Shown one piece after another: positions 3,640 to 26,747 of a stretch of DNA of 64,000 nt (positions within the stretch are counted from its first letter, which is position 1; the number at the start of each line of letters is the position of its first letter). The translations under genes and the position numbers were made by a program. The stretch is taken from contig OX597820.1 in the NCBI GenBank assembly GCA_951406725.2, positions 46,500,001 through 46,564,000 of the forward strand. The letters run 5' to 3'. The stretch is from Octopus vulgaris. Its lineage: Eukaryota. Below the pieces are notes generated by a model. That model worked only from the letters and a program-made list of their open reading frames with translations, had not been told where the DNA came from and made no database searches.

Positions 3640-4440
3640 GGATCTTTACCTTTTGACCGGCAGATTTAGAAAATAATCTTTTGTAACTAAACACTTTCAA
3701 ACTTCGTATACTGGTAGAATGTGTCATATAAAACATCTTTTACTCTTAACGTTTTTGAGAAAAGTTTATGTTTACGAAGTTATTTCATGTTAAAGTTCTC
3801 GTATTTCGGTAATTTCAACCAATCAATGACGTGTATTCAGCTGAAGAAAATTACTGCCGTTGTTTGTCAACAACTATCGGCAGTGTATATTTCGTTTGTC
3901 AGTGTTATTTATAACATCGTTCATGCGTTTGTACTGGTTTTAGCTTTAAGGTTTTAGGGTTAGGGTTGGGGTTTTAGGGTTAGAGTTACAGAAAAATGAA
4001 GAAATTGGAGGGGTAGGGGGCAAAAAAGTCTTTCTGAAAATAGTAGCTGAAAAACAGGTAAAAAACCCCTAAAAGCAGTAGAAATGCACGAACGATTATG
4101 GTGGTGCCATGAAGTACATGCTTCAGATACACTCGTTTATTCATACAAACCTAACTGAGATGAAATATGTCATAAATAACAGTGACAAACGAAATATACA
4201 CAGCTGGAAGTTGTTGTTGACAAACAACAACAGTAATTTTTATGCAGCTGAATACACGTCATTGATTGGTTGAAATTACCGAAATACGAGAACTTTAACA
4301 CGAAATAACTTCGTAAACATGAACTTTTCTCAAAAACATTAAGAGTAAAAGACGTTTTATATGACACATTCTACCAGTATACGAAGTTTGAAACTGTTTA
4401 GTTACAAAAAATCATTTTCTAAATCTACCGGTAAAGATCC
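3640..4440. mobile_element. Foldback MITE with about 270-bp terminal inverted repeats
   Basis: 3640 to about 3915 is the reverse complement of about 4170-4440. The spacer has TTAGGG-like repeats. No clean TSD. Confidence 0.75.
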
Positions 4441-15302: not shown

Positions 15303-15385
<83 letters not shown>

Positions 15386-15548
15386 GTTATCGCCATACTA
15401 ATATGGCATTCTTATAAAAATAAGAATAAAGCTGTCCGCTTATTAGCTCCATGAGGCCATCGCCTTAAGTTAGCTATTTGATACACAAACTGTATCCATA
15501 TAACCTTCGAACAAGGGAGGTCAGTCGCTCCACACTACTTGACCGGCA

Positions 15549-15590
15549 GCTACAGACGCGTTTCGGGGTATTGCCCCTTTTCAATGTAGC
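15549..15590 (-). ncRNA. Identical hammerhead motif in the inverted arm
   Basis: Exact reverse complement of 15819-15860. Confidence 0.75.
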
Positions 15591-15818
15591 GTAGCCAGAC
15601 CAGTAGGTGTCGCTACTGACAATCTCTGTTCGAAGGTTTTATTTACCTAGCTTCGATAACTATTATTTTCCGGGAACGCTGCCGTTGTTCTCTTTTAGAG
15701 AGACTTAGTAATTTTAATATTTCTATTATTGAAAACAAGTGGATGTATTCCACCGAAGCTAGGTAAATAAAACCTTCGAACAGAGATTGTCATTAGCGAT
15801 ACCTACTGGTCTGGCTAC

Positions 15819-15860
15819 GCTACATTGAAAAGGGGCAATACCCCGAAACGCGTCTGTAGC
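15819..15860 (+). ncRNA. Minimal type I hammerhead ribozyme, U3:A8 core variant
   Basis: GCTACA-TTGAAAA-GGGG caata CCCC-GAAA-CGCG-TC^-TGTAGC. Stem I GCTACA/TGTAGC, stem II GGGG/CCCC, palindromic stem III ACGCGT, predicted cleavage after C15854. Confidence 0.78.
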
Positions 15861-16529
15861 TGCCGGTCAAGTAGTGTGGAGCGACTGACCTCCCTTGTTC
15901 GAAGGTTATATGGATACAGTTTGTGTATCAAATAGCTAACTTAAGGCGATGGCCTCATGGAGCTAATAAGCGGACAGCTTTATTCTTATTTTTATAAGAA
16001 TGCCATATTAGTATGGCGATAACTATTATTTTCCGGGAACGCTGCCGTTGTTCTCTTTTAGAGAGACTTAGTAATTTTAATATTTCTATTATATATATAT
16101 ATATATCACGTGATCACGTGACCGACCAGGCCATCAGATGTTGCTACACATCGCTGGTCACAATGCGTTCACATTGTTTTAGCCTTCGAATGACGCCACC
16201 CCGCTGGCTAAGCGAGCAGGCCAACAGAAGAAAGAGTGGGAGGAAGAGTGGTGAAAGAGTATGCAGAGTAGATGAAACTATGGCGACTGAAGAAGGGGAA
16301 TTTTCCTTGTGTTATTTGTCCTGTACTCTTTTTTTTTTGTTTAAGAAAAATGTCCAGTTCCTTGGTTTTGTGTTTATGTTTTTGTTTCTCATTGTGTTCG
16401 ACGTTTTTTTGGTGTCCTGTACCCATATATGCGTGTATATATACATGTAGAGGTAGGTACGTACATATATGTATATATATATATGCATGTTTTATTTATT
16501 AATATATATATATATATATATATATACAA

Positions 16530-16859
16530 ATTCCAGTTGGGACACAATTTTGTCTTAAAAATAACTTCATCTGCGCATCAAAGAATTTACTTTATCCCAT
16601 AAGGTGTGAAGGGTTCCACAAAGATTACATAGGGCAAACGAGCATTACCCTCAGAGAAAGGATAACAGTCCACCGCCAACAATTGAGGGATCCCACCACA
16701 AGACAGATACCACTTGGTGGGCACTTAGATCTCTGTGCACAAAACACGTCCCCCAAATTCCTAGTTTTCCCACTATATCAATGCTCGGACAACATCACTG
16801 ACCAAACACAAATAAATAATCTTATTCAAAAATACAGACCACTACTCAACATACTCTAA
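16530..16859 (+). mobile_element. Penelope-like element 3' fragment, GIY-YIG endonuclease
   Basis: Hand translation: NFICASKNLLYPIRCEGFHKDYIGQTSITLRERITVHRQQLR...GHLDLC...YRPLLNIL*. Followed by about 1 kb of degenerate CA-rich sequence. Confidence 0.8.
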
Positions 16860-25900: not shown

Positions 25901-26142
25901 TCAATGAACTAGTCAACATAATGCTTGTTTTTTTTTACTATTTAATTTATAATGTACTGTTTATCGCATTAAATGCATATTGAATGCTTAAAACTACAAA
26001 AGACGTGTTGTTTACTCATTTTCCACGTGCAGAATACAAATATTGACATTCATTAATTCATTTGGTTCTCATTGTGCTTTGTGGTACTTGAGGTGACAGT
26101 AAGATTATTCCACCTTCCAACACCGAGAGCATCTACTGTAAG

Positions 26143-26747
26143 CTTTGAACAAGGGAGGTCATCTGCTTCCCCTTGCTGGTCTGGCATCTACAGACTAGTT
26201 TCGGGGTATTTGCCCCTTATCAATGTAGAGCAGCTGAACCAAGCAGGTGTTGCTACTGACCTTCTGTTTGAAGGATTATTTATCTAAAATCAGTGGAATA
26301 CATCCACTGGTTTTCAAAAATAGAAATATTAACATTTCTAAGTCTCTCCCAAGGAGACTACGGCAGCAGTACTGGATATCAATAGTTATTAATACTGGAT
26401 ATTAATAGTTACCGCCAAGCAAACATGGCTAATATTTCCATTTTCGAAAACCAGTGGATGTATTCCACTGAATTTAGGTAAATAATCCTTCAAACAGAAG
26501 GTCAGTAGTGATGCCTGCTTGGTTCGGCTGCTCTACATTGGTAAAGGGCAATTACCCTGAGACTAGTCTGTAGATGCCAGACCAGCAAGGAGAAGCGGAT
26601 GACCTCCCCTGTTCAAAGGTTATAATGGACACAGGTTCATGTGTCACATAGCTAGCTAGATGCAATAGCCTCTTGGAGCTAATCAACAGCAGCATTTGTC
26701 CTATTTTTCTGGACTGCCATGTTAGCTTGGCGATAACTATTAATATC
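26143..26747. mobile_element. Second, diverged member of the same hammerhead-bearing family, again as an inverted pair
   Basis: Arms at about 26143-26331 and 26430-26618. Shares motifs with 15381-16091 (gtggatgtattccac, ggagctaat, gcgataactatt). Confidence 0.72.
26187..26229 (-). ncRNA. Minimal type I hammerhead ribozyme, U3:A8 core
   Basis: TCTACA-TTGATAA-GGGG caaata CCCC-GAAA-CTAG-TC^-TGTAGA, with compensatory changes relative to the 15819 copy. Confidence 0.75.

What the first reader, a model, noticed from the sequence alone, without database searches (positions are those of the whole stretch)
26143..26747. Diverged second locus shows compensatory covariation in the hammerhead and circular permutation of the monomer
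Seen, comparing 26229-26187 (-) with 15819-15860: stem I changes from GCTACA/TGTAGC to TCTACA/TGTAGA, both sides together. The stem III palindrome changes from ACGCGT to ACTAGT and stays palindromic. Variable position 7 changes A to U, while U3, U4, G5, A6, A8, A9, GAAA and GUC are kept. The partner arm (26532-26574) has stem II AGGG/CCCT but a decayed core (TTGGTAA, GAGA). The end of the + arm (gccatgttagcttggcgataactatt) matches the start of the - arm. Inference: RNA structure was under selection in the active family, and the template was circular or multimeric. The inverted-pair layout recurs at both loci, so it may reflect the integration mechanism.
Basis: partly seen in the sequence, partly recalled or inferred. 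Interest (0 to 1): 0.75.

Follow-up and report, generated by a model that had tools for sequence, protein, structure and literature searches.

The report
Penelope-pasted retrozyme with compensated hammerhead
This is an old, broken copy of a 361-base non-coding jumping repeat whose family kept a predicted self-cutting RNA fold through many paired base changes, and whose back-to-back insertions start at two fixed points, one per arm, which likely records a Penelope-type enzyme copying one looped RNA from both ends of a DNA cut.

Summary
26139-26747 is a decayed, head-to-head two-arm insertion of a ~362-nt non-coding repeat with a type I hammerhead (U3-A8 core); 15380-16092 is a young copy of a sister subfamily. 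The genome holds thousands of copies in four subfamilies (83-90% alike). Compensatory changes run through the whole unit (5-8 per distant comparison against 0.5-1.5 expected), the helix III palindrome has three states, and a distant family keeps the C3-G8 core. Breakpoints are not scattered and it is no MITE: 3' ends sit at two fixed sites, mostly in (TA)n; 5' ends vary; all 44 readable inverted pairs have one long and one short end. An intact Penelope-like element in the genome leaves the same footprint. Arrays reach 5.5 seamless units of one haplotype, so one unit was re-read; a covalent circle is likely but unproven. Verdict: a non-LTR retrozyme moved by Penelope machinery. The scan reported this footprint before on other repeats of this genome.

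The parts
26139..26429 (-). Locus 2, minus arm (subfamily B). Starts at unit position m341, carries a ~20-nt tandem duplication near 26390-26410, runs m3-m255 and stops abruptly at 26139. Its outer ~180 nt with the expected long 3' end are missing (inferred later deletion).
   Evidence: (92.4% to B consensus over 251 nt)
26187..26229 (-). Type I hammerhead motif with complete core (U3-A8, N7=U), 6-bp stem I, 4-bp stem II, palindromic helix III ACUAGU; predicted cut after GUC
   Evidence: fold
26430..26747 (+). Locus 2, plus arm: m62 through m363 to m16-17, the family's fixed short 3' end; joined head-to-head to the minus arm at 26429/26430
   Evidence: (93.4% to B consensus over 318 nt)
26532..26574 (+). 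Decayed hammerhead (A6 to G, A13 to G); these are private changes of this arm
26717..26742 (+). Segment m341-m12 present at the end of the plus arm and the start of the minus arm (26429-26404): terminal redundancy of about 40 nt
15380..15655 (-). Locus 1, minus arm (young subfamily A): m101 to the short 3' end, into (TA)n; hammerhead at 15549-15590
15654..16092 (+). Locus 1, plus arm: one full 363-nt unit (15654-16016) plus m1-76, the long 3' end, into (TA)n; hammerhead at 15819-15860

Best explanation
Both loci are insertions of a ~362-nt non-coding hammerhead repeat (a non-LTR retrozyme) that was likely pasted in by the reverse transcriptase-endonuclease of a Penelope-like element, which would copy one folded unit-length RNA, probably a circle, from both ends of a cut in AT-rich DNA. 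Shown: the unit, its copy number, compensatory evolution of its fold, two fixed 3' ends 63 nt apart, variable 5' ends, head-to-head arms with one long and one short end, one haplotype per insertion, seamless arrays of up to 5.5 units, and an intact Penelope-like ORF with the same footprint. Inferred: (1) multimeric transcripts self-cleave as double hammerheads through the palindromic helix III; (2) unit-length RNA is ligated to a circle; (3) the enzyme cuts both DNA strands and primes at two internal RNA sites, one per DNA end; (4) each polymerase runs on until it falls off, often inside the long rod helix; (5) the two cDNA 5' ends are joined. Locus 2 is an old (about 7% diverged) dead product that later lost the outer end of one arm.
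For: Copy number: 3060 exact matches of an 18-mer against 0 control; 2526 hammerhead 3' halves against 4. Covariation with the structure predicted from one subfamily alone: A vs B 6 compensatory double changes (null 1.18, P 0.0005), A vs C 5 (0.92, P 0.001); D vs B1 8 (1.48, 0 of 5000 shuffles), D vs C 5 (0.49); 11 distinct pairs in all. Core 14 of 14 positions invariant in four subfamilies against 94 of 146 other unpaired positions (P 0.002), N7 = A, C, U, U. Helix III palindromic in 98 of the first 100 listed matches, in three states. Distant family E (E 6.6e-16) has C3-G8 in 19 of 24 on-target motifs. Ends: 74 of 85 arms at two sites, 61 of those 74 followed by (TA)3 within 10 nt; 24 of 24 readable pairs long+short (23 independent), 21 of 21 more. 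Haplotype: polymorphic sites differ 11/569 within arms, 5/252 between arms, 16217/46722 between loci in A. No indel scar in 181 passes through the cut site. Autonomous element: 781-aa RT + GIY-YIG ORF, two 3' ends about 40 nt apart, (TA)n target, long+short ends in 2 of 2 inverted loci. Two internal RT start sites and cutting of both strands are shown in vitro for an anole element (PMC11167929, parts 1-2 of 4 read).
Against: No cleavage, expression or circle was shown. The unit has no detectable homology with the Penelope-like elements in 50 fetched loci, so the partner is inferred from the footprint only. In subfamily C the haplotype test is uninformative (0.17 within arms, 0.15 between arms, 0.22 between loci; mostly CpG-type sites). 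One of 11 readable pairs in family E is short/short (L296). 11 of 85 arms end elsewhere. In vitro, hammerhead cleavage was not needed for insertion and start sites did not differ between strands (PMC11167929). Subfamily comparisons share branches and are not independent; R-scape was not run.
Confidence: 0.8

Rival explanations
1. Same element and enzyme, but the template is a linear multimer read through from tandem donor arrays, or linear units joined by polymerase jumps; no covalent circle.
For: Fixed 3' ends and truncated 5' ends fit linear templates. Uncut RNA was the main substrate in vitro (PMC11167929). Tandem arrays exist as donors. Two loci show variants shared by some units only (L027, L030).
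Against: 38 variants sit in all units of a locus and only 4 in some (16 loci), so arrays are reset to one unit again and again. Unit-specific variants recur at the same rank in the other arm in 1 of 13 cases (weak in so young a family). No scar at the cut site in 181 passes, about 3 expected by background. Only 1 of 85 5' ends lies near the cut.
Confidence: 0.3
2. The unit is the terminal repeat (pseudo-LTR) of a coding Penelope-like element not yet found, and these loci are its 5'-truncated insertions.
For: The layout is that of truncated Penelope insertions, and opposite-strand hammerhead pairs 100-700 bp apart and a U3-A8 core are described for them (PMC4209133, parts 1-2 read). Only 150 of 6136 GIY-YIG candidates were scored.
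Against: Long arms continue upstream into further units, up to 2010 nt, not into an ORF. The hammerhead has the canonical 6-bp/4-bp shape, unlike the long-stem-II motif of the local Penelope element. No homology in 50 Penelope loci.
Confidence: 0.1
3. A MITE or foldback DNA element whose paired changes come from DNA hairpin repair.
For: Each locus looks like a long inverted repeat; antisense strands also fold well (z -5.3 to -8.9).
Against: Arm lengths run from 26 to 2010 nt with variable inner ends; 21 of 51 loci have one arm; the two outer ends differ. Unpaired catalytic positions are conserved and positions 3 and 8 covary. No target duplication is seen at locus 2, though one end is lost there.
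Confidence: 0.02

Closest known systems
Metazoan non-LTR retrozymes (PMC7229834, passages and Discussion read; bioRxiv 10.64898/2026.07.22.740005, part 1 of 5 and passages read)
   Same: Non-coding ~360-nt unit (mussel and axolotl monomers are 330-400 nt), tandem copies, one canonical-shape type I hammerhead per unit with weak palindromic helix III, highly self-paired fold, co-occurring Penelope-like elements proposed as mobilisers.
   Different: U3-A8 core (the term does not occur in the main text of PMC7229834); mostly short dispersed insertions with head-to-head arms and two fixed ends ('inverted' 0 times in PMC7229834); circular RNA not shown here; no homology found to a local pseudo-LTR.
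EN+ Penelope-like elements, Neptune type (PMC8557442 and PMC3846280, passages read)
   Same: Partial tandems, inverted 5'-truncated copy, head-to-head arrangement, a tail at only one end, (TA)n preference, hammerhead near the 3' end. The local 781-aa ORF has the C-x4-C-x2-C linker described for Neptune.
   Different: No ORF in the unit (longest 21-73 aa); tail of 63 nt against 30-40 nt; arrays of up to 5.5 units. Clade assignment of the local ORF rests on the linker motif, not on a tree.
Anolis Poseidon element PAc (PMC11167929, parts 1-2 of 4 read)
   Same: Two internal reverse-transcription start sites that define the tail; AT-rich cleavage of both strands; predicted protein dimer.
   Different: PAc is autonomous; in vitro both strands used the same start sites, whereas here each insertion pairs one long with one short end.
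Penelope minimal hammerheads of Schistosoma (PMC4209133, parts 1-2 of 4 read)
   Same: U3-A8 replacing C3-G8; opposite-strand pairs close together; compensatory changes within families; circular template proposed for tandems.
   Different: Those have long helix II and short helix I; this motif has 6-bp helix I, 4-bp helix II and sits at the tip of a 140-nt rod.

Membership tests
Non-LTR retrozyme | Small (150-400 nt) non-coding unit | tested here: met
   361-363 nt; longest ATG ORF 21-73 aa; no tRNA gene in 5 loci
Non-LTR retrozyme | Type I hammerhead in each unit | tested here: met
   Motif complete in units of all subfamilies; no Rfam model hit
Non-LTR retrozyme | Tandem head-to-tail copies with at least two hammerheads | tested here: met
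   12 of 85 arms cross the cut site twice or more; longest 2010 nt. Locus 2 itself has no tandem pair.
Non-LTR retrozyme | Self-cleavage of multimeric RNA | not testable with these tools
   Inferred from core conservation
Non-LTR retrozyme | Accumulates as circular RNA | tested here: inconclusive
   Only assembled contigs of runs guessed to be RNA were available; genomic signs are indirect
Penelope-like element (autonomous) | ORF with RT and GIY-YIG endonuclease | tested here: not met
   No ORF in the unit or its arrays
Penelope-type insertion | Partial tandem, inverted 5'-truncated copy, optional tail, microsatellite target | tested here: met
   same footprint in the local autonomous element
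Derivative of a Penelope pseudo-LTR | Sequence homology to the terminal repeat of an autonomous element | tested here: inconclusive
   None in 50 loci by blastn and nhmmer; most GIY-YIG candidates unsampled
MITE | Fixed length, fixed terminal inverted repeats, target site duplication | tested here: not met
   Variable length, unequal outer ends, 21 of 51 single-arm loci

The most novel reading that the evidence does not exclude
A Penelope enzyme dimer loads on one closed 362-nt RNA circle at two fixed sites 63 nt apart, primes one site from each cut DNA strand, and the two polymerases chase each other round the circle; this one step would explain tail, partial tandem and inverted arm of Penelope insertions in general. 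The lineage also swapped its catalytic C3-G8 pair for U3-A8 while staying mobile, so cleavage stayed under selection.
Probability: 0.4. Interest if true: 0.72.

Novelty: new member of a known kind. Interest (0 to 1): 0.5.

Why it matters
How Penelope-like elements make tandem and inverted insertions, and whether retrozymes ride on them through circles, is proposed in print but not settled (PMC8557442, PMC7229834, PMC11167929). This family gives a strict rule to test (one long and one short end per insertion, one haplotype per insertion), a short template with known start sites, and an intact candidate enzyme in the same genome. Four subfamilies and a distant relative also form a natural mutagenesis series of a dimeric hammerhead.

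Tried and rejected
Rfam scans gave only microsatellite noise. RNA: no RNA holder listed on record; contigs of four runs guessed to be RNA cover the unit but cannot show strand, ends or circles. Partner search: no homology between the unit and Penelope sequence in 50 loci. The pattern had one N too many and gave background (123 against 93 control); rerun. The script's long-end label for family E was misplaced, so those pairs were read by eye. The haplotype test in subfamily C was uninformative. No tRNA gene. A look-up of earlier findings by this unit's sequence found nothing. Literature: searches listed no paper on an octopus or cephalopod retrozyme, none among the 15 listed with the term U3-A8, and none among the 9 listed joining retrozymes with twin priming; subscription journals, Repbase, Dfam and supplements were not seen. 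MITE, satellite expansion at DNA level (4 partial against 38 whole-array variants) and a once-copied cut linear monomer (1 of 85 5' ends near the cut) were rejected.

Full report
Observation. Numbering below is by the 363-nt unit at 15654-16016 (m1-m363); the predicted hammerhead cut lies after m201. Locus 2 spans 26139-26747. Its minus arm starts at m341, has a ~20-nt duplication, and runs to m255. Its plus arm runs from m62 over the unit junction to m16-17. The arms are joined head to head at 26429/26430. They are 92.4% and 93.4% identical to their subfamily consensus, share 5 non-consensus bases and differ at 19 of 208 overlapping positions. So they came from one template and then decayed apart. 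The rod around the intact core folds poorly now (z -1.8, against -6.6 at locus 1). Locus 2 is a dead copy; the selection it records acted on the active lineage.

The family. An 18-mer of the unit has 3060 exact matches against 0 for the control. Consensus building gave subfamilies A (98-99% between copies), D, C (95-98%) and B (86-91% to locus 2), 83-90% alike. A distant family E aligns over model positions 46-328 (E 6.6e-16). The unit has no ORF above 73 aa. It folds into a 140-nt rod with the hammerhead at its tip plus several hairpins (z -6.3 to -10.1).

Covariation. I predicted pairs from one subfamily alone and counted how substitutions in another fall on them, against shuffles that keep number and kind of changes. 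A vs B: 6 compensatory double changes in 107 pairs (null 1.18, P 0.0005) and 13 broken pairs (null 22.8). A vs C: 5 (0.92, P 0.001). B vs C: 3 (0.74, P 0.03); C vs B: 4 (0.61, P 0.002). D vs B1: 8 (1.48), D vs C: 5 (0.49), A vs D: 2 (0.10). Eleven distinct pairs are involved. The comparisons share branches, so they are not independent. All 14 core positions are invariant in A, D, C and B1, against 94 of 146 other unpaired positions, while N7 reads A, C, U, U. The helix III loop is GC, AT or TA in 58, 35 and 5 of the first 100 of 2526 matches and non-palindromic in 2; each state self-pairs fully, as does family E's. Family E has C3-G8 in 19 of 24 on-target motifs (4 off-target rows of 28 dropped) and none with U3-A8, so the catalytic 3-8 pair was swapped within the lineage.

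Ends. I took the loci behind the first 100 listed matches (51 loci; one cluster, L130/L131, left out as a probable duplicate of its neighbour). Of 85 arms, 39 end at m69-77, 35 at m10-16 and 11 elsewhere; 61 of the 74 run into (TA)3 within 10 nt. There are 31 head-to-head and 0 tail-to-tail pairs. All 24 pairs with both ends readable have one long and one short end (23 independent); 7 have a damaged end. A second sample of 48 loci added 18 of 18 (13 pairs unreadable, 1 tail-to-tail) and the 30 best B hits 3 of 3 (10 unreadable, 1 tail-to-tail): 44 of 44. Family E gives 10 of 11 by eye, with one short/short. Locus 1 obeys the rule; locus 2 keeps the short end and has lost the other. 5' ends are spread over the unit, with 1 of 85 near the cut site and 13 of 82 at m238-246 against 2.1 expected. 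That cluster is inside the 3' strand of the rod, where a polymerase would stall on folded RNA (inference).

Template. 26 of 82 arms are at least one unit long, up to 2010 nt. No indel lies within 3 nt of the cut site in 181 passes (about 3 expected). In A, family-polymorphic sites differ 11/569 within arms, 5/252 between the two arms and 16217/46722 between loci; in C the test is uninformative. In 16 multi-unit loci, 38 variants are in all units, 43 in one and 4 in some. Each insertion was therefore written from one unit type read repeatedly. A circle explains this most simply; homogeneous linear multimers or exact polymerase jumps are not excluded.

Mobiliser. A GIY-YIG search gave 148 matches among 150 scored of 6136 candidates, many in 781-aa frames. 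The ORF has RT (E 1.2e-6, just under the Pfam cut-off) and GIY-YIG domains and a C-x4-C-x2-C linker. In 20 fetched loci it shows upstream partial copies, two 3' ends about 40 nt apart running into (TA)n, a U3-A8 hammerhead with ACAUGU, and long+short ends in both inverted loci. It shares no detectable sequence with the unit, so the pairing is inferred.

What is known. Tandem non-coding units with type I hammerheads, circles and Penelope mobilisation are described or proposed (PMC7229834, passages and Discussion; bioRxiv 10.64898/2026.07.22.740005, part 1 and passages). Inverted copies, partial tandems, a tail at one end and (TA)n targets are Penelope hallmarks (PMC8557442 and PMC3846280, passages). 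U3-A8 cores, opposite-strand pairs and a circular template are in PMC4209133 (parts 1-2 of 4). Two internal start sites are in PMC11167929 (parts 1-2 of 4). I did not find the strict one-long, one-short pairing or a retrozyme with this footprint in the passages read or in searches; supplements were not seen. Earlier notes of this scan describe the same footprint on other repeats of this genome; I had mapped the ends before reading them, and they are not independent support.

Verdict. Real; a new member of the non-LTR retrozymes with a U3-A8 core, likely moved by a Neptune-type Penelope element (0.8). Circle with two primers: 0.4. Interest 0.5.

Noticed in passing
window 16539-16856 (+): Remnant of a Penelope-type GIY-YIG domain, 50% identical to aa 669-777 of the intact ORF (E 8e-27), starting just after a (TA)n run about 450 bp from locus 1.
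   Followed up: partly
L091-L110 (e.g. L102 1939-4281 +): Young, intact Penelope-like family with a 781-aa frame, 95-100% protein identity between copies, a second reading frame upstream and its own U3-A8 hammerhead.
   Followed up: partly
L107 2280-4900 (oriented to the ORF): A subfamily A arm with the long end lies head to head, across about 200 nt, with a truncated Penelope copy with the short end; possibly one hybrid insertion, possibly two events.
   Followed up: no
L079 1-1000: A subfamily C copy and a Penelope copy end tail to tail in the same (TA)n tract.
   Followed up: no
L278-L307: Family E: older ~356-nt relative with canonical CUGAUGA core, the same overall fold and the same two-ended insertions; 2106 candidates.
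   Followed up: partly
G000, rows: The word GAAACGTCGTCTGTAG recurs often among 100 listed matches, some in close pairs; possibly another hammerhead repeat family.
   Followed up: no
L204 2253-4252: A 5.5-unit array with an A-like sequence that carries the A-U version of pair m161/m210 seen in C and D in all units: a recombinant or intermediate lineage.
   Followed up: no
window 3653-4435: Unrelated 198-nt inverted repeat at 94% with 387 nt between the arms.
   Followed up: no
listing: Runs labelled as six different organisms hold 59-89% of the unit's sampled words, so subfamily A may be shared with related species.
   Followed up: no
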